Of a stretch of 64,000 nt of DNA, positions 862 to 61,034 are shown in pieces. The position numbers and the translations under genes are program-made. The first letter of the stretch is position 1. Every line of letters starts with the position of its first letter. A model generated the notes under the pieces. It was given only the letters and a program-made list of their open reading frames with translations, was not told the DNA's origin and did not search any database. This DNA comes from a virus (Duplodnaviria > Caudoviricetes), in the IMG/VR virus record IMGVR_UViG_3300032317_000216, positions 64,641 through 128,640 of that record; one strand, given 5' to 3'.

Positions 862-1593
862 TTTCATACCTGCTATAACCTTAACAATAAACTTTAGCAG
901 CTTGCTTCTTGTAATATCTTCTTCTGTAAAATGAAAGGTATGTATGCCATTACTATTACTATCTTCTGTATCAAATGCGCTCATTATTTTTTCAAATCCT
1001 GACTTCTGAATATCAGATTGCAGAGAATCACCTATAATAAATAACTTACAATTCTTACCAAATCGTGTTAATATGGTAACCAATTCACTGTGCTCTAAAT
1101 TCTGTGCCTCATCAACTATTACTACATTGTTTGTAAATGTCGCACCTCTCAGGAAATTTACAGGTATGCTTTTGAGATAATCACTTTGAAATAACATCTC
1201 TGTAATGTGTTTACCCACAAGTTCATCGCATTTCTCTATAAGCGGAATACTCCATGGTTTGAACTTGTCATCTACTTCACCTGGTAGGCTTCCTAACTTT
1301 CTTGTTGCCGACTCAACAATACTTCTAATATAAACTATTTCATCTATCTTCTTTTCTCTAAGCATAGACAAGGCAACATATACAGCCAGATATGTTTTTG
1401 ATGAACCTGCAGGACCGTCACAGAACATGATTTGTGACTCATCATTCATAGCTTTCTCAACAAAAGCTTTGTGATGCTCATTTAAATGAAACTTCTGATC
1501 AATCTTAAAATTAAGAAATATATCATTTCTTATAATACCATTCTCATCTTTAGCCTTGGCAGCTTTTTTAAGCTGTCTGTCTTTTTTTGACAT
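853..1593 (-). CDS. phoH: PhoH-like ATPase
   Basis: GPAGSSKT Walker A, LGSLPG, FLRGATF, IVDEAQN and IIGDSLQSD motifs. Confidence 0.92.
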   Translation of the reverse strand: MSKKDRQLKKAAKAKDENGIIRNDIFLNFKIDQKFHLNEHHKAFVEKAMNDESQIMFCDGPAGSSKTYLAVYVALSMLREKKIDEIVYIRSIVESATRKLGSLPGEVDDKFKPWSIPLIEKCDELVGKHITEMLFQSDYLKSIPVNFLRGATFTNNVVIVDEAQNLEHSELVTILTRFGKNCKLFIIGDSLQSDIQKSGFEKIMSAFDTEDSNSNGIHTFHFTEEDITRSKLLKFIVKVIAGMKSK

Positions 1594-1640
1594 CTAATAA
1601 TATTTATTGATTTTTGCTATCTTTATAGCATAATAGTGCT

Positions 1641-2378
1641 ATGGAAAAGAGTATATTTCTATCAGACGACAAGGTTTTTCACACTATTGAAGGTGAAGGA
1701 GAACACATTGGTAAGCCTTCACTGTTTATGCGTGTTGCAATGTGTAATCTCACATGCAAGGGGTTTGCTAGCAAAGATTCTCCACATGGGTGTGATAGTT
1801 TTGTCAGCTGGTCAGTGAAAAACAGGTTTACCTTTGACCAGTTATTTCAATACCTAGAAGATCATAATTATATTACTCTGCTGCGCAGAGGTGATATATT
1901 TAAGATCACCGGCGGTGAGCCGCTCATACAGCAAAAAAATCTTCTGGAATTTATTGCAGCTTTTGCACTCAAGTACCGCTTCATACCAAGAATAGACTTT
2001 GAGACTAATGCAACCATTATACCCGACCCATCTTGGCAGCTTGACTACTTAGCTACATTCACAACATCACCCAAGCTTGCAAGTAATGGTGACCCTGAGA
2101 ACAAGCGATACATACCTGATGCATTAATGTGGCATGCACGCAATGGCTCAGGGTTTAAGTTCGTCATTACAAAAGAAGAAGACCTTAAGGAGATTGAAGA
2201 GCGTTACAGAGAGAAGTTTGATTTCAGGAGAAATAAAGTGTGGTTAATGCCTTGTTGTGGAAGCAGAGAGGAACATATTGTTATTGCTCCTCTTGTGGCT
2301 GAATTATGCAAGAAACATGGCTTTAACTTCAGTCCAAGATTGCAGCTTGTTATCTGGGATAAAGCCTTGAAGGTTTAG
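1641..2378 (+). CDS. queE: 7-carboxy-7-deazaguanine synthase QueE (radical SAM)
   Basis: FHTIEGEG..IGKPSLFMR, CNLTC...CDS (long-spaced CxxxC..C), ITGGEP, FETN and FSPRLQ motifs. Confidence 0.9.
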   Translation: MEKSIFLSDDKVFHTIEGEGEHIGKPSLFMRVAMCNLTCKGFASKDSPHGCDSFVSWSVKNRFTFDQLFQYLEDHNYITLLRRGDIFKITGGEPLIQQKNLLEFIAAFALKYRFIPRIDFETNATIIPDPSWQLDYLATFTTSPKLASNGDPENKRYIPDALMWHARNGSGFKFVITKEEDLKEIEERYREKFDFRRNKVWLMPCCGSREEHIVIAPLVAELCKKHGFNFSPRLQLVIWDKALKV

Positions 2379-12101: not shown

Positions 12102-12897
12102 AAAAAGCATGGGAAGATTTGGAAACCAATTGTTTCCTTATTTTACTGGCAGAATAATTTCTGAAAATTTAAAATTTAAACTTTATGGCCCCACTGAGTC
12201 TGATAGAGAATTTATGCTTCATGGCTTAGATTTGAATTACAATAAAAAAGAATATGCTCAATATGAAGAGCCTGTACAGCTTTTAGGGGACCATAGTAAT
12301 TCTGATCATTTCTATCACAGCGATATAAACCATTTTAATAAACTCTGCCATCCTAATTTCAATATTCTTGATATTATAAATGATAACACACCAAGAAAAA
12401 TAATACTAGATGGATATTTTCAGCGCAAAGGCTTTTTTTTACCTTTTAGAGAAAATATTATTGAATGGTTCAATCCAACAATCTATTCAGTAAATGATAC
12501 AGATACAGCTATTCACATACGTTTAGGAGATCTGCTTTTTCCTAACTTGAGAAAACACTTACTTCCACCGGATTACTATGAAGAAGCTATCAAACTTTGC
12601 CCAACAGGCAAGCTGACCATATGCACAGACTCTCCTGAAAATATATTCATACAATACCTAGTAAAAAAATATAACGCTACTGTATTTAAAGACACAGAAA
12701 AAAATACAATTTCTTTTCTAGCAGCTCATAATAATTTAATTTTAAGTCAAGGATCATTTAGCTTTTGGGCAGGATTTATGTGTAATGGTTCTAATATTAT
12801 TAATGCGCTGCCAAAGACTGGATGGAATAGTAGCGTGGATGATGTTGATGTTGATGTGCTTTTAACAGGTGAAAAATACAAATATATTAAATTATGA
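12085..12897 (+). CDS. alpha-1,2-fucosyltransferase (GT11-like)
   Basis: GRFGNQLF, GYFQ, IHIRLGD and SFSFWA motifs. Confidence 0.85.
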   Translation: MSVVIKKSMGRFGNQLFPYFTGRIISENLKFKLYGPTESDREFMLHGLDLNYNKKEYAQYEEPVQLLGDHSNSDHFYHSDINHFNKLCHPNFNILDIINDNTPRKIILDGYFQRKGFFLPFRENIIEWFNPTIYSVNDTDTAIHIRLGDLLFPNLRKHLLPPDYYEEAIKLCPTGKLTICTDSPENIFIQYLVKKYNATVFKDTEKNTISFLAAHNNLILSQGSFSFWAGFMCNGSNIINALPKTGWNSSVDDVDVDVLLTGEKYKYIKL

Positions 12898-13703
12898 ACA
12901 ATTTTCTACTTGTACATATTGGTGACTCTTTACCAAATTTTTTAAAAACATGCATTCGACAAATTCAATTAACAAACAAAAATGCTGATATTATTCTAGC
13001 AACAAATTTAAATGTACAAGCACCTGGTATTAACTGTGTTAATATAAACAAGCTACAGCTTAAAGACACAGGGAGCTATTTTCAATATAATCCAGATCCA
13101 CTATGGATTACTTCATTAAAAAGAATTTTTATAATAGACCATATAATGCAAAAATTTAATTTGAAGAATACTGTTCACATTGATAATGATGTGCTTGTAT
13201 ACAATAATATTGATGAAATAAAAGACAAATTAATTGAACCACTCTATATTACACCTCATAAAAAAACAGAGTTTACTTTTGGTTTTTCTTTTGCCAGAGA
13301 ATCTAATGCTTTCTCTCTTTTATCAGAAAATATTTATAGATTAATCATGCTTGGTGAAAACGAAGTTAAAAAGCTTACTGGAGATGAAACACATGAAATG
13401 AGATTGCTTGGCTACACAAATAATAGAAATATTACCCCTTTACCAATTCATCCTAAAATAGGGCAGCCTATTAACAACTTTATTTTTGACCCCTCTTCTT
13501 ATGGACAATATTTAGATGGTACACCTAGTGGTCATTTGCCTGGGTTTATTGATCCACTGCAGATAGCGGGTAGTATATTTAAAGATGAAAATCCAGAAAT
13601 ATTGTTTATTAATAAAAAACCAATTCTTAAACACAACAATAATATTTATAATATCTTTAATCTGCATATACACAGCAAACAACTTTCAAAATATGAAATT
13701 TGA
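12894..13703 (+). CDS. putative glycosyltransferase (GT-A)
   Basis: HIDNDV DxD-like motif, FDPSSYGQYLDG and NLHIHSK; position in the island. Confidence 0.6.
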   Translation: MNNFLLVHIGDSLPNFLKTCIRQIQLTNKNADIILATNLNVQAPGINCVNINKLQLKDTGSYFQYNPDPLWITSLKRIFIIDHIMQKFNLKNTVHIDNDVLVYNNIDEIKDKLIEPLYITPHKKTEFTFGFSFARESNAFSLLSENIYRLIMLGENEVKKLTGDETHEMRLLGYTNNRNITPLPIHPKIGQPINNFIFDPSSYGQYLDGTPSGHLPGFIDPLQIAGSIFKDENPEILFINKKPILKHNNNIYNIFNLHIHSKQLSKYEI

Positions 13704-56611: not shown

Positions 56612-58822
56612 ATGCCAAGTTATTATTTTAAAATTCCAGCTCTTATAAAAACGAATTACGGTGTAATTAATTACAATCGCTTAAATCTTACTGTCGCTTC
56701 AACACTAACTTCTTCAACTGGATTGACAGCCAGTACTTGGTACGACACTGATAGAATTCAATATCAGCTTAATCCCACTCTATCTGCAGGTCAAGTTGCT
56801 AAGGTGCTGCCTGCTGCATTTCCGTTTGTCACATCAGCTTATAACATTTCACTTGGTTTACCAGGTCTTAAAGTAAGCGCTAAAAGAAACAAGATACCCA
56901 TAACTTTTTATAATAGCAGTACCAGAACATATACTTACAGTGGATCACCCGATTTCAATTATTTTTACCCTTCATTAAGAACTCGCGTATTTTATAAAAA
57001 TATACCCAAAGATGTTACCATTACATCAATCAATTCAAGTGCAAAAACATTTCGTACATCTACTGATGCATGGAAGTATAATATAGCTAGCAATAATTTC
57101 TTTAATAATGATTTTTATGCTCTTGACCAAACAGTAGAAGCTACAGATGACACTGCAGGTACCTGGAAACTATTTCCATACTATAGAGTTGATGCGCTAG
57201 AAAAAAACACTCTCAATAAGTTCTATAAAAGAATATTGCAATCCCCTGTTATAGGTGTCAAGCGGGACACTACTTACAATCAAACTGCTTCATTTACTGT
57301 GCCTTTTGCATTATATTATAAGATAGATTATTATGTTGATAGATTTTTTATACCAACCACAGAAGAACAACGACGATCCAATCAAAGCAATCCTGCTGGC
57401 AGATTGATTTACGATAAAAGTGTTTCATTTATTGATTATAAACTCATAACTGTGCCATTGTCAACAGCAAATGTTTCTCTATCATCTTATAAAACAGTAT
57501 TATTACAATCTCAAACACCACCATTAGTGAACAGTGACATAAGAATTAACAGTAATTACATATTTAGCAACAATCAAGCATCAAGCTCTTCTATTGAATC
57601 AATTAATTGCTCTAGATATAATGATTTATCTGGCTCAAGCATTGATCATAAATTTATTACTCAGAAGATATACCCACTATCTGCAACTAATACAGGTATT
57701 AAGCACATATCTGCAGGCCCAGCTTTAAGCGCTTGGGGTGGATTTGATGCATCAGATGATCATGTAATTGTTTCAGATACCTTTAAGAATGAATTGCATA
57801 TCTATAGAATAGATAATACAACTAATGAGCCATTTTATGCTAATATTGTACCTCACACAATAGTAAAACCAGCATCATCTGTAAGAGGAATGCTCCAGAC
57901 ATCAATTTCAGGGTACGGCAGAAATTTGATCATTGATTCAAGATACAAGCGCAAAAATACACTTGACGTGGTGGCTAATAGTTATGTTGCAACTGTGAGT
58001 GGTAAGCGAACCAATGCAATTGAAGTTGCCACTCTATCTATTGCCAACAGTGCATATCAAAGAGAATTTCATATATTTGACTTTGAATATCCTCATTTAA
58101 GCTCCAATGCTGTGAGCGCAAATGAAATATCAAACATGTGCTTAATGTTAGACAATGAATCAATCACTGTATATACATCTTTAGTAGTAATAAGGCCCGG
58201 TGTTATATATAATGGTAATAAAGGCATAGTTGAAGTGTATGGTTGCAGTGCCAACACACCCATTAAATTATACAAAATAATAACTATTGCTGATACAAGC
58301 TTGAGTGCTGTGTCTGCAGCTGTTATAACAAACATTTGCACTGGTGAATTAGGAACATTTTGTTTTACAGTTTCATCCCCTTCAAATGCATGTGTTGAAG
58401 TTTATGATATTGATGCGCGTTCAACAGCCACATCAGCTGCATCCTTGACTGCTTTAAGTGGGGCGAAAACAACATTTGCATTTGAGTTATCAGCAGATAG
58501 AAAAGCATCTGTTTACAATTATGAAAATACAGATAATAGTTTTGGAAAAGCTATTTATTTTGATAATGCATTGGGATATGATCCATTCTTTGAAAACCAA
58601 ATTCTCAACACAAACCGTCTGTATGTACAGAATAATAATAAGACATTTATTTTTGAAGAGTTTCAAAATAAATTCATACCTCTTAACACAGTATCAGGCA
58701 ATTTTAATTCAATACGTGCGTACTTTAATGTGTTTTGCTCTCTTTCCACAGTAGCTACTAACTCACAGATATCTAAACATACAAATGTAAATTTATTATC
58801 TTCTTTTGAGTTGAAACAATAA
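56612..58822 (+). CDS. large hypothetical (probably virion) protein
   Basis: 736-aa Ser/Thr/Asn-rich ORF with LSA motifs like other structural proteins in this window. Confidence 0.6.
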   Translation: MPSYYFKIPALIKTNYGVINYNRLNLTVASTLTSSTGLTASTWYDTDRIQYQLNPTLSAGQVAKVLPAAFPFVTSAYNISLGLPGLKVSAKRNKIPITFYNSSTRTYTYSGSPDFNYFYPSLRTRVFYKNIPKDVTITSINSSAKTFRTSTDAWKYNIASNNFFNNDFYALDQTVEATDDTAGTWKLFPYYRVDALEKNTLNKFYKRILQSPVIGVKRDTTYNQTASFTVPFALYYKIDYYVDRFFIPTTEEQRRSNQSNPAGRLIYDKSVSFIDYKLITVPLSTANVSLSSYKTVLLQSQTPPLVNSDIRINSNYIFSNNQASSSSIESINCSRYNDLSGSSIDHKFITQKIYPLSATNTGIKHISAGPALSAWGGFDASDDHVIVSDTFKNELHIYRIDNTTNEPFYANIVPHTIVKPASSVRGMLQTSISGYGRNLIIDSRYKRKNTLDVVANSYVATVSGKRTNAIEVATLSIANSAYQREFHIFDFEYPHLSSNAVSANEISNMCLMLDNESITVYTSLVVIRPGVIYNGNKGIVEVYGCSANTPIKLYKIITIADTSLSAVSAAVITNICTGELGTFCFTVSSPSNACVEVYDIDARSTATSAASLTALSGAKTTFAFELSADRKASVYNYENTDNSFGKAIYFDNALGYDPFFENQILNTNRLYVQNNNKTFIFEEFQNKFIPLNTVSGNFNSIRAYFNVFCSLSTVATNSQISKHTNVNLLSSFELKQ

Positions 58823-59133
58823 TTACAGTTCTTTCTGATTACGATGGGGCAGTATACCCTTAGTTGATTTATATCACTTCTAGTTCTTACGCAACTTGTT
58901 CATCTGAACGTGTTTACGCATGATAGTCATTTGTAGCTACTGTCACCAGTAGGATCGGACTATATCTTCACCTGTTAAGGTGCCGGGGGCTCTGGCTGGT
59001 TATTAAGGCTTCCTGTGCCTCCAGTAGTCTCTACACCTTCATGAAAAGCGTTTCATGCTTGGCTCGGTATTTTCTCTTTTGAGGTTTCCACCGAATTCAC
59101 CCAGTCTCGTAATTAGAAAGAACTGTAATTATT
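58818..59133 (-). ncRNA. group I intron ribozyme, apparently circularly permuted (opened in L2)
   Basis: Minus strand contains P3 CUGGGUG/CCCCCGG, P4 UUCGGU/ACCGAG, P5, P6/P6a, P7 GAGACUA/UAGUCC, P7.1, P8 CACCU/AGGUG, J8/7 AAGAUA and P9 with GUGA loop; P1 and the 5' strand of P2 lie downstream of P9; 27-bp terminal stem. Confidence 0.85.
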
Positions 59134-59232
59134 TATTGCCATTATGCATTTAATCTGAATAATGCATTGATTTTTTTGAGCAGCTGCATGATTTACATAT
59201 GGAACCAGGTTATTCATTGGATAATTAATGTT

Positions 59233-59652
59233 ATGAACGCCTTAAATTCAAACAACATCATTGGTGTAACAACCAAATTAATCATTGATTCAGATGCATT
59301 TGCACTTGAGCTCAAGAACCAACATGTTGAAATTTATCTGGACATAGAATCTTATCAAAAAGACATACACTGCAGCTGCAAAAAAAGAATAGAAAAGTAC
59401 ATCTCCAGAAATAAAAAAGCAATCAAACAGTTTGTCACTAGCTTCTACAACAGCAACATCAAATTGCAAGCCACTATAAACCGCGTCATCAAGCAAAATA
59501 CCTATGTTTCGCTCAGAGGCAAGGTGGCCACAATCCACAACTCTGATAAAGCTTGGGAGAAGTTCTATCGCAAAATGGTCGCCGACAATTGTTATTTCAG
59601 AGGATATTCAGTGGTTGCAGCTGGCAATGAGCTAAAAATATACTTTGTATGA
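59233..59652 (+). CDS. hypothetical protein (CSC motif), paralog of 49636..50064
   Basis: DIESY...HCSC, GKVATI and FRGYSV...LKIYFV. Confidence 0.6.
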   Translation: MNALNSNNIIGVTTKLIIDSDAFALELKNQHVEIYLDIESYQKDIHCSCKKRIEKYISRNKKAIKQFVTSFYNSNIKLQATINRVIKQNTYVSLRGKVATIHNSDKAWEKFYRKMVADNCYFRGYSVVAAGNELKIYFV

Positions 59653-60961: not shown

Positions 60962-61034
60962 TGGGCCCACTAGGATTTGAACCTAGGACCAAGGCATTAT
61001 GAGTGCCCTGCTCTGACCGCTGAGCTATAGGCCC
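60962..61034 (-). tRNA. tRNA-Ile2 (CAU anticodon, lysidine type); CCA not encoded
   Basis: GGGCCTATAGCTCAGCGGTCAGAGCAGGGCACT-CAT-AATGCCTTGGTCCTAGGTTCAAATCCTAGTGGGCCCA; cloverleaf resembles ileX-type tRNAs. Confidence 0.88.

What the first reader, a model, noticed from the sequence alone, without database searches (positions are those of the whole stretch)
58818..59133. Free-standing, naturally circularly permuted group I intron predicted to make a small RNA circle
Seen in sequence (minus strand, 5'->3'): a late-promoter motif AATAAATA (~59137-59130), then a 27-nt arm (59133-59107), then a complete group I catalytic core. The core comprises P3 CUGGGUG/CCCCCGG, P4 UUCGGU/ACCGAG, P5 CUC-AAAA-GAG, P6a CAUGAAA/UUUCAUG, P7 GAGACUA/UAGUCC, P7.1, P8 CACCU-UAAC-AGGUG, J8/7 AAGAUA and P9 CUACUG-GUGA-CAGUAG. 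A candidate omega-G follows at 58928, then 57 nt of 'exon'. After that come a P1 helix (AGU(G)AUAU 58878-58871 pairing with GUAUACU 58857-58851, U58871.G58857 wobble at the 5' splice site), GCCCC, and a second arm (58844-58818) that pairs with the first arm at 26 of 27 positions. Established: in ordinary group I introns P1 and the 5' strand of P2 come before the core. Here they come after the 3' splice site, which is the topology of engineered permuted intron-exon (PIE) circularisation constructs. No interrupted host gene is visible. Inference: the phage transcribes this late and self-splices it to release a covalently closed ~57-nt circle (58927-58871). I know of natural permuted group II introns, but I cannot recall a characterised natural group I equivalent. 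P10 is weak (about 2 bp), so the exact 3' splice site is less certain.
Basis: partly seen in the sequence, partly recalled or inferred. Interest (0 to 1): 0.95.

Follow-up and report, generated by a model that had tools for sequence, protein, structure and literature searches.

The report
Natural permuted group I ribozyme, RNA circle
A freshwater T4-like phage carries a stand-alone self-splicing (group I) RNA enzyme whose splice sites lie in swapped order, and environmental RNA data contain the exact head-to-tail joint expected if it cuts out a 72-base RNA and closes it into a ring, a design I found in print only for engineered RNAs, group II introns and one coral mitochondrial intron.

Summary
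The group I core is real: Rfam RF00028 scores 55.5 bits on the minus strand at 58936-59167. The 27-nt inverted arms are real too. The element interrupts no gene; it fills the gap between two plus-strand ORFs and has its own TAAATA-type late box. Comparison with 15 related phage elements shows that the conserved P1 is GGGU|A (58859-58855) paired with UGCCC (58851-47). Its U.G wobble is invariant and the neighbouring pairs covary. With omega-G at 58928 this predicts a 72-nt circle (58927 to 58856). I wrote that prediction down before laying any reads. Assembled contigs from two freshwater metatranscriptome runs then showed exactly this joint (...CUAAGGGU|ACUAUCAUG...). One contig is 102 nt long, which equals 72+30, the form a circle takes in a k=31 assembly. 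The joint is absent from every DNA source I could search. The arms covary with a second lineage (five double changes). No function is known for the circle. The scan has flagged this family on other genomes before. I found no published natural stand-alone example. Raw-read and bench confirmation are still needed.

The parts
59130..59137 (-). Late-promoter-like box AATAAATA (TAAATA core 59135-59130); predicted RNA start near 59124
   Evidence: Sequence. TAAATA-N5-ATG occurs 10 times in the window against 2.5 expected, with 0 of 100 shuffles reaching 10. TATAAATA sits at the same place in L010, L014 and L021. RNA contigs give no cover at 59138-59219 in any of the 4 runs (weak hint).
59107..59133 (-). 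Arm 1, the 3' strand of P2 (DNA repeat 27 nt; RNA part about 59124-59107)
   Evidence: Inverted repeat, 96% complementary. Paired in the MFE fold. Five double compensatory changes against L010, and L087 keeps only the 16-18 bp proximal part.
58936..59105 (-). Group I catalytic core P3-P9: P3 59105-59098/58989-58982; P4 59095-90/59068-63; P6 59057-51/59046-40; P7 59031-25/58962-57 with the P7.1 insert; P8 58982-58969; P9 58952-58937
   Evidence: RF00028 at 55.5 bits. P3, P4 and P6 covary in relatives.
58928..58928 (-). Omega-G, the 3' splice site (cut between G58928 and A58927)
   Evidence: The motif ...CAAAUG| matches the 3' end AACAYAAAUG| of conventional relatives. The RNA joint starts at A58927.
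58856..58927 (-). 72-nt excised segment ('exon'), the predicted RNA circle; folds into two hairpins
   Evidence: X17 contig of 102 nt (72+30) reads 58927 to 58855 and then 58926 to 58898. X15 has a 59-nt joint contig at depth 19.2 and a 73-nt unit contig at depth 41.2. Circular fold -8.4 kcal/mol against a shuffle mean of -3.2.
58847..58859 (-). P1 hairpin GGGU|A-UAC-UGCCC: 5' splice site after U58856, wobble U58856.G58850, guide strand 58851-58847
   Evidence: Invariant GGGUAUACUGCCCC in window, L040 and L087. U.G is kept in all 16 tabulated members while flanking pairs covary. The hairpin appears in the MFE fold. The joint ends at U58856.
58818..58844 (-). Arm 2, the 5' strand of P2; it overlaps the stop codon of the plus-strand ORF 56612-58822; a U-rich stretch follows on the minus strand
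   Evidence: A U-run directly follows arm 2 in L010 and L106. The X16 RNA contig ends at 58828 (weak hint).

Best explanation
This is a stand-alone gene for a naturally circularly permuted group I ribozyme of a T4-like freshwater phage. Transcription starts at its own late promoter near 59124 on the minus strand. The RNA begins with the 3' strand of P2 and runs through the full catalytic core P3-P9 to omega-G (G58928). A 72-nt segment follows, then a minimal P1 hairpin (GGGU|A-UAC-UGCCC), and the RNA ends with the 5' strand of P2. The 16-18-bp P2 clamps the two ends together and restores the normal three-dimensional arrangement. The chemistry is ordinary group I chemistry. Free guanosine attacks after U58856, the U of the U.G wobble. 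The new 3'-OH of U58856 then attacks after omega-G. Because the 3' splice site lies upstream of the 5' splice site, the 'ligated exons' form a 72-nt covalently closed circle (58927 to 58856). What remains is a two-piece ribozyme held together by P2.

Shown here: the core, the arms, the conserved P1 with covariation, enrichment of the element in RNA libraries, and the exact head-to-tail joint in RNA contigs. Inferred: guanosine dependence, covalent circularity (as opposed to a linear concatemer), the transcription start and end, and any biological role. My leading guess for the role is a nuclease-resistant small RNA made late in infection. P2 followed by a U-rich tract probably also serves as the terminator.
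For:: RF00028 at 55.5 bits; no interrupted gene; the flanking long ORFs are on the other strand; 27-nt arms; the MFE fold of 59126 to 58824 forms the arm helix and the GGGUA-UAC-UGCCC hairpin unprompted (z = -5.3); 16 elements from at least 8 lineages all have a 3'-splice-site-like A-rich linker ending in G directly after P9, then a short segment, then GGRU paired to a GGYCC guide. U.G is invariant. The other pairs change together: GGAU/GUCC, GGGUG/CGCCC, GGGUA/UGCCC, and GAGUA/UGCUC in L106; in 12 relatives P1 is 98.3% paired, G.U is 12/12, and 2 of 5 pairs have double changes; across all five counted helices (P1, P3, P4, P6, P7) 0 of 500 shuffles reach the observed covariation score. P2 shows 5 double compensatory changes between the window and L010; the L106 arms are unrelated in sequence but sit at the same place. 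The 72-nt prediction was written down. One search then showed contigs from two metatranscriptome runs with the joint U58856-A58927: a 102-nt cyclic-type contig and a 59-nt joint contig whose lengths equal what a 72-nt circle gives at k=31. A linear precursor contig (58828-59100) is also present; the joint 20-mer is absent from IMG/VR, from all 157 fetched loci including the DNA assemblies L040 and L087, and from the phage's own record.
Against: The RNA evidence is assembled contigs, not raw reads. The joint pieces have 30 and 29 letters on a side, just under the tool's own 31-letter rule for 'bridging', and the tool did not list them as a joint in its table 5. RNA libraries can contain DNA, and I could not lay DNA runs of the same samples, so a strain with a 72-bp tandem duplication is not formally excluded. 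The contigs carry L040-type variants, so they come from a near relative, not this exact genome. A head-to-tail joint cannot tell a circle from a trans-spliced concatemer. P1 is very short (5 bp with a 3-nt loop) and P10 is weak (4 of 5 pairs, with a C-C mismatch). No activity assay exists. The circle sequence is only loosely conserved between lineages, so the circle may be a by-product.
Confidence: 0.82

Rival explanations
1. The head-to-tail joint is a DNA feature or an assembly or reverse-transcription artefact: a strain variant with a 72-bp tandem duplication, or template switching. On this reading the ribozyme does not back-splice.
For: One search used contigs only. RNA libraries may hold DNA. 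The sides of the joint are 30 and 29 letters, below the tool's bridging rule.
Against: The joint falls to the nucleotide on the two splice sites predicted beforehand from group I rules (then). It appears in two runs. Three DNA assemblies (window, L040, L087) have no duplication, and the joint 20-mer is absent from IMG/VR and from all loci. Only 1 nt of microhomology is available for template switching. Cover vanishes in the adjacent promoter gap, so bulk DNA is not what was sequenced.
Confidence: 0.06
2. The ribozyme is active but its selected job is not the circle. It may trim or terminate its own transcript, or act in trans as a two-piece ribozyme. In the guide-first relatives it would cut the downstream mRNA free beside the start codon. 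On this reading the circle is a by-product.
For: The circle sequences differ strongly between lineages, from 18 to 74 nt, and often are just one hairpin. In L005, L018, L022 and L029 the cut site GGGU|CAA lies directly before the ATG of the next gene. Roth et al. argued the same for the circles of permuted group II introns (PMC8637638).
Against: In this window nothing lies downstream on the minus strand to be processed; it is only antisense to a gene's 3' end. The 72-nt segment is longer here than in most relatives and is kept in three related phages. The unit and joint contigs have the highest depths in X15 (41 and 19), although contig depth is a poor measure.
Confidence: 0.3
3. It is a decaying conventional intron whose true P1 lies upstream (the hairpin 59163-59141 that Rfam aligned), and the downstream P1 and arms are chance.
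For: Rfam aligned model positions 1-27 to 59167-59141 with high posterior probability.
Against: That alignment puts a U-C mismatch exactly at the U.G position. There is no exon ORF on the minus strand. RNA contigs do not cover 59138-59219. The hairpin overlaps a sigma-70-like promoter for the plus-strand gene. The downstream P1 and the arms covary across lineages.
Confidence: 0.02
4. A protein closes the circle: an endonuclease cuts and a phage RNA ligase seals, independent of the ribozyme.
For: T4-like phages often encode RNA ligases. I did not test this here.
Against: Both ends of the circle coincide with group I splice-site signatures, namely after the U of a conserved U.G and after the G that ends the 3' motif. 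No ligase-type recognition structure is evident.
Confidence: 0.03

Closest known systems
Engineered permuted intron-exon (PIE) group I constructs (T4 td, Anabaena pre-tRNA), as used for circRNA production (e.g. PMC6035260, PMC4344496)
   Same: The 3' half with omega-G precedes the insert, and the 5' splice site with P1 follows it. Complementary end arms hold the halves together. The product is a circular 'exon'. The parent intron type is a phage IA-type with a P7.1 insert.
   Different: This one is natural, not designed. The break is in the P2 loop rather than P6. The insert is a 72-nt non-coding RNA. It has its own phage late promoter.
ND5-717 giant group I intron of corallimorpharian mitochondria, removed by back-splicing (Chi et al. 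2019, PMC6545197)
   Same: Natural group I splicing from a precursor in permuted intron-exon order, with a circular exon-containing RNA.
   Different: ND5-717 is a true intron of a protein gene. Its permuted order arises at the transcript level on a circular mitochondrial genome, and the circle is an intermediate towards mRNA. Here the permutation is fixed in the gene itself, no host gene is involved, and the circle is tiny.
Natural circularly permuted group II ribozymes (Roth et al. 2021, PMC8637638)
   Same: A stand-alone non-coding gene. The splice sites are reversed and separated by under 100 nt. Small circles form (15-86 nt there; 18-74 nt predicted in this family). The biological role is unknown.
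   Different: A different ribozyme class and chemistry: branching adenosine there, exogenous guanosine here. Those are bacterial chromosomes and plasmids; these are phages.
Engineered 'cis-splicing' and end-to-end self-targeting constructs with the ribozyme core at one end (PMC11417360; PMC10415121)
   Same: They resemble the guide-first relatives of this element (L012, L018, immuto and others): guide strand at the 5' end, target site downstream, and a helix that brings the splice sites together.
   Different: They are engineered. The window's element instead keeps an intact P1 hairpin and opens P2.
Conventional phage group I introns of the td/nrdB/nrdD type, including relatives found here (L031, L033-L035, S-SRM01 psbA introns)
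   Same: The same core sequence family: about 80% identity over P5-P3', the same J8/7-P7, and the same 3'-terminal AAAUG motif.
   Different: Those have P1-P2 before P3, sit inside ORFs or tRNA genes, and ligate linear exons.

Membership tests
Group I intron ribozyme (Rfam RF00028) | Conserved catalytic core P3-P9 with J8/7 and P7 guanosine-binding helix | tested here: met
   55.5 bits against a gathering score of 50, model positions 1-253. Relatives score 62-83 bits. P3, P4 and P6 covary.
Group I intron ribozyme (Rfam RF00028) | P1 helix with a U.G wobble at the 5' splice site | tested here: met
   GGGU|A/UGCCC. U.G is invariant in the 16 tabulated members while neighbouring pairs covary. The joint ends at that U.
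Group I intron ribozyme (Rfam RF00028) | Terminal guanosine (omega-G) at the 3' splice site | tested here: met
   G58928 ends the motif shared with conventional relatives. The joint begins at A58927.
Group I intron ribozyme (Rfam RF00028) | Guanosine- and Mg-dependent self-splicing activity | not testable with these tools
   Needs an in vitro assay.
Intron in the strict sense (conventional group I intron) | Interrupts a host gene whose exons are joined to a functional RNA | tested here: not met
   No minus-strand ORF or RNA gene is interrupted; the element lies between two plus-strand ORFs.
Intron in the strict sense (conventional group I intron) | Order 5' exon-P1-P2-P3...P9-omega-G-3' exon | tested here: not met
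   P1 and the 5' strand of P2 lie 3' of omega-G. The upstream 'P1' of the Rfam alignment has U-C at the wobble position.
Permuted intron-exon (PIE) topology / back-splicing ribozyme | 3' splice site upstream of 5' splice site on one transcript, halves held by a helix | tested here: met
   Omega-G at 58928, 5' splice site at 58856, P2 arms 59124-59107/58844-58827. A linear precursor contig covers 58828-59100.
Permuted intron-exon (PIE) topology / back-splicing ribozyme | Product with the 5'-splice-site nucleotide joined to the first nucleotide after omega-G | tested here: met
   Joint ...GGGU|ACUAUC... in contigs of runs X15 and X17, with contig lengths that fit a 72-nt cycle. Caveat: contigs, not raw reads.
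Permuted intron-exon (PIE) topology / back-splicing ribozyme | Covalently closed circular product (exonuclease-resistant) | not testable with these tools
   Needs RNase R treatment, 2D gels, or rolling-circle RT reads.

The most novel reading that the evidence does not exclude
Phages have evolved, and kept in several lineages and in two different break-point designs (P1-loop-open 'guide-first' and P2-loop-open as here), a class of stand-alone permuted group I ribozyme genes. These are expressed late in infection and make very small circular RNAs in nature. The 72-nt circle of this phage would be a functional, nuclease-resistant small RNA, for example a decoy or regulator acting on host or phage factors. 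That would make it, as far as the papers I could search show, the first natural viral or bacterial counterpart of the laboratory PIE system with in-situ RNA evidence.
Probability: 0.35. Interest if true: 0.93.

Novelty: new variant of a known kind. Interest (0 to 1): 0.87.

Why it matters
Group I introns have been studied for 40 years as gene-interrupting, exon-joining elements. Their permuted form is the workhorse of synthetic circular-RNA production and was regarded as a laboratory invention. A natural, promoter-driven, gene-free permuted group I ribozyme in phages, with its circle joint visible in lake metatranscriptomes, would have four consequences. First, it shows that nature uses the same trick. 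Second, it gives group I a direct parallel to the permuted group II ribozymes. Third, it reveals a possible class of small circular RNAs in phage infection whose role is open. Fourth, it offers compact natural scaffolds (about 300 nt, with a break in P2 or P1) for circRNA engineering. A member of the family sits in a cultured phage-host pair (Flavobacterium phage immuto), where it is mis-annotated as a hypothetical protein, so the question can be tested directly.

Tried and rejected
L087 and L010 do not conserve the pairing, and the RNA joint contradicts it.
(2) The conventional upstream P1 from the Rfam alignment is rejected because of the U-C at the wobble position and the lack of exons.
(3) An inversion or assembly artefact at the arms is rejected. 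Inverting the segment between the arms would not restore the conventional order. Three independent assemblies and a collinear RNA contig agree.
(4) Searching IMG/VR for relatives through the flanking 736-aa protein found none. Pfam and PHROGs gave nothing for the flanking ORFs.
(5) The metagenome scan with the 17-mer ACTGGGTGAATTCGGTG returned mostly chance matches in GC-rich coding DNA. Only L040, L087, L106, L083, L126 and a few tRNA introns were real.
(6) A coding role for the circle is not supported. All three frames of the 72-nt circle contain stops. The 16-codon ORF starting at the AUG that contains omega-G is kept only in close relatives; L010 has a 5-codon version.
(7) An antisense target within the phage was not found: the 72-mer matches only itself in the 128-kb record.
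The step was left out.
(10) Parts of the stretch without RNA cover (59138-59219) and the contig ends near 59100-59112 and 58828 are only weak hints for the RNA's ends.
(11) Literature searches found no natural stand-alone permuted group I ribozyme. The library lacks most subscription journals.
Full report
**What is there.** The window comes from an IMG/VR virus record of 128.6 kb that is about 61% complete. Earlier notes on the same genome describe T4-like replication genes (not checked here). On the minus strand Rfam finds a group I intron at 58936-59167: RF00028, 55.5 bits against a gathering score of 50, E 2e-11. The 27-nt inverted arms 58818-58844 and 59107-59133 are 96% complementary.

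The element fills the 344-nt gap between two plus-strand ORFs, 56612-58822 (736 aa) and 59167-59652. Neither matches any Pfam or PHROG family. The minus strand has no long ORF on either side, so no gene is interrupted. Only one RF00028 match exists in the whole record.

**Is there a conventional P1?** Rfam aligned its P1 to a weak A/U hairpin at 59163-59141. The alignment has U-C exactly where the 5'-splice-site U.G should be. That stretch coincides with a sigma-70-like promoter (TTGCCA-16-AATAAT) for the plus-strand gene. No RNA contig covers it. I reject it.

**Relatives.** A 20-mer from P7 retrieved 25 IMG/VR loci. A 17-mer from P3-P4 retrieved metagenome loci, most of them chance hits but some real.

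- Some relatives are conventional introns in ORFs or tRNA genes, for example L031, L033-35 and the psbA introns of phage S-SRM01. They end with ...GAACAYAAAUG| before the 3' exon.
- A larger group is free-standing and shares one plan. The A-rich, G-terminated 3'-end motif sits directly after P9. A short, usually hairpin-forming segment of 18-74 nt follows. Then comes GGRU, which pairs with a GGYCC guide.
- In most members the guide lies immediately 5' of P3 ('guide-first', P1 loop open). These are L012/15/17/28, L014, L021, L005/18/22/29 and Flavobacterium phage immuto L002/L027.
- In the window, in its close relatives L040 and L087, and in the separate lineage L010/L026, the guide follows the substrate as a hairpin (GGGUA-UAC-UGCCC here). 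After it comes arm 2, which pairs with arm 1 just before P3. This is the P2-loop-open form.
- L106 has the same plan with unrelated 23-nt arms and P1 GAGUA/UGCUC.

**Covariation.** The U.G wobble is invariant in the 16 tabulated members, while other P1 pairs change on both sides: GGAU/GUCC in immuto, GGGUG/CGCCC in L005 and GGGUA/UGCCC here. Counted on an alignment of 12 guide-first members, P1 is 98.3% paired, G.U is 12/12, and two of five pairs carry double changes. For the five helices together (P1, P3, P4, P6, P7), none of 500 shuffles and none of the slid controls approach the observed values.

P2 shows five double compensatory changes in 18 bp between the window and L010. L087 repairs the window's single A-C mismatch and keeps only the 16-18 bp nearest P3. 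That matches a transcription start near 59124, which I infer from the genome's TAAATA-N5-start pattern: 10 occurrences against 2.5 expected. An unconstrained fold of 59126 to 58824 forms both the arm helix and the P1 hairpin (z = -5.3).

**Prediction and test.** From P1 and omega-G I predicted a 72-nt excised segment, A58927 to U58856, and recorded it in the notebook. Six metatranscriptome runs hold part of the stretch. I laid four of them.

- Run X17 has a 102-nt contig that reads 58927 to 58855 and then 58926 to 58898.
- Run X15 has a 73-nt unit contig (depth 41.2) and a 59-nt contig that reads 58884 to 58855 and then 58926 to 58898 (depth 19.2).
- X15 also has a core contig 58898-59112 (depth 34) and a linear continuation 58511-58884 (depth 7.5).
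- A58855 and A58927 are the same letter, so the joint is ...GGGU(58856)|A(58927)CUAUC..., exactly as predicted.
- The lengths fit. In a k=31 graph a 72-nt cycle prints as 72+30 = 102 nt, and the 31-mers unique to the joint (those holding U-A-C) number 29, which gives a 59-nt contig.
- X16 holds a collinear precursor contig (58828-59100).
- All four runs lack cover at 59138-59219.
- The contigs carry L040-type variants.

The joint 20-mer is absent from IMG/VR, from all 157 fetched loci and from the phage record.

**Caveats.**
- These are contigs, not reads.
- The sides of the joint (30 and 29 letters) fall just short of the tool's 31-letter bridging rule, and the tool did not list a joint in its own table.
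- A joint alone does not separate a circle from a concatemer.

**Mechanism.** The most likely course is ordinary group I chemistry in permuted order. Guanosine attacks after U58856. The freed 3'-OH then attacks after G58928. This releases a 72-nt circle and leaves a two-piece ribozyme clamped by P2.

A possible P10 pairs the first exon nucleotides ACUAU with AUACU of the P1 loop (4 of 5 pairs). L010 has ACC/GGU at the same place, including one double change. I read this from the sequences, so it is inference.

U-rich tracts follow arm 2 in L010, L106 and, less clearly, here. P2 may therefore double as the terminator stem (inference). In L010 the element lies between two same-strand ORFs, has TATAAATA in front, and is followed by the next gene's own TAAATA box, so it is an independent transcription unit.

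**Function.** The function is unknown. The circle has stops in all frames, no match elsewhere in the phage, and only patchy similarity to the L010 circle. It folds into two hairpins. It may be a stable small RNA, or it may be a by-product of a ribozyme selected for something else.

**Comparison with what is known.** Full-text searches found the following:
- engineered PIE and cis-splicing systems (PMC6035260, PMC11417360, PMC10415121);
- natural permuted group II ribozymes that make 15-86-nt circles (PMC8637638);

None is a stand-alone, gene-level permuted group I ribozyme. The library is incomplete, so a paper in a subscription journal cannot be excluded.

This scan's own earlier notes report the same family on other genomes. 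They are unchecked AI notes, and those shown to me cite no RNA joint. I used them only as context, after I had formed my reading.

**Verdict.** This is a new variant of a known kind, with unusually direct in-situ support.

Noticed in passing
L002:1437-1700 (GenBank MW353175.1 about 145,030-145,290; also L024, L027): The cultured Flavobacterium phage vB_FspM_immuto_2-6A carries a guide-first member of the family (GGUCC guide, GGAU|C site, predicted 18-nt circle), directly followed by an intrinsic terminator. It is annotated as a 44-aa hypothetical protein (immuto26A_226) and falls below Rfam's gathering score.
   Followed up: partly
L012, L014, L017, L018, L021, L022, L027, L029 (regions in alignment A2): Guide-first members have a covarying 5-7-bp helix between the segment spanning the 3' splice site and the tail 2-5 nt after the 5' splice site, for example AUGCGUU/AACGCAU and AAUGCU/AGCAUU. 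It would hold the two splice sites together, like the designed arms of engineered cis-splicing constructs.
   Followed up: partly
L005, L018, L022, L029: Here the ribozyme sits between the stop codon of one gene and the ATG of the next. The cut site GGGU|CAA overlaps a Shine-Dalgarno-like GAGGG 3-4 nt before the ATG, so cleavage would leave a nearly leaderless mRNA carrying an added G.
   Followed up: no
L106:about 1100-1700 (minus strand of the locus): A P2-open element with unrelated 23-nt arms and a U-run after arm 2. Its roughly 330-nt segment between the splice sites holds a second partial core (P8'-J8/7-P7'-P9) and a 24-nt direct repeat that duplicates the putative 5' splice site.
   Followed up: no
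L004:1198-1319: A RAGATH-7-assoc RNA (RF03105, 133 bits) lies 38 nt upstream of a conventional group I intron (96.7 bits) in crAss-like phage cr6_1.
   Followed up: no
L036:about 12830-13220: Two group I cores in tandem, about 150 nt apart, in a GC-rich viral contig. The first ends ...GCAAAUG|ACCGC, like the window's 3' motif.
   Followed up: no
window 59136-59163 (+): A sigma-70-like promoter TTGCCA-16-AATAAT (10 of 12) faces the plus-strand ORF 59167-59652, back to back with the ribozyme's late box. This gives a divergent promoter pair about 30 nt apart.
   Followed up: no
window, whole: TAAATA followed by exactly 5 nt and ATG occurs 10 times against 2.5 expected (0 of 100 shuffles reach 10). 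This fits the near-leaderless late genes that another first-stage note reported.
   Followed up: partly
window 58880-58930 (-): A 16-codon ORF (MTIMRKHVQMNKLRKN) starts at the AUG whose G is omega-G. It is kept in L040 and in L087 (two substitutions), but L010 has only 5 codons starting M-T-I. The shared AUGACYAUYAU is more likely an RNA constraint (omega-G plus P10).
   Followed up: partly
window 60962-61034 (-): A tRNA gene (71.4 bits) lies on the same strand 1.8 kb upstream of the ribozyme and is conserved next to it in L040 and L087.
   Followed up: no
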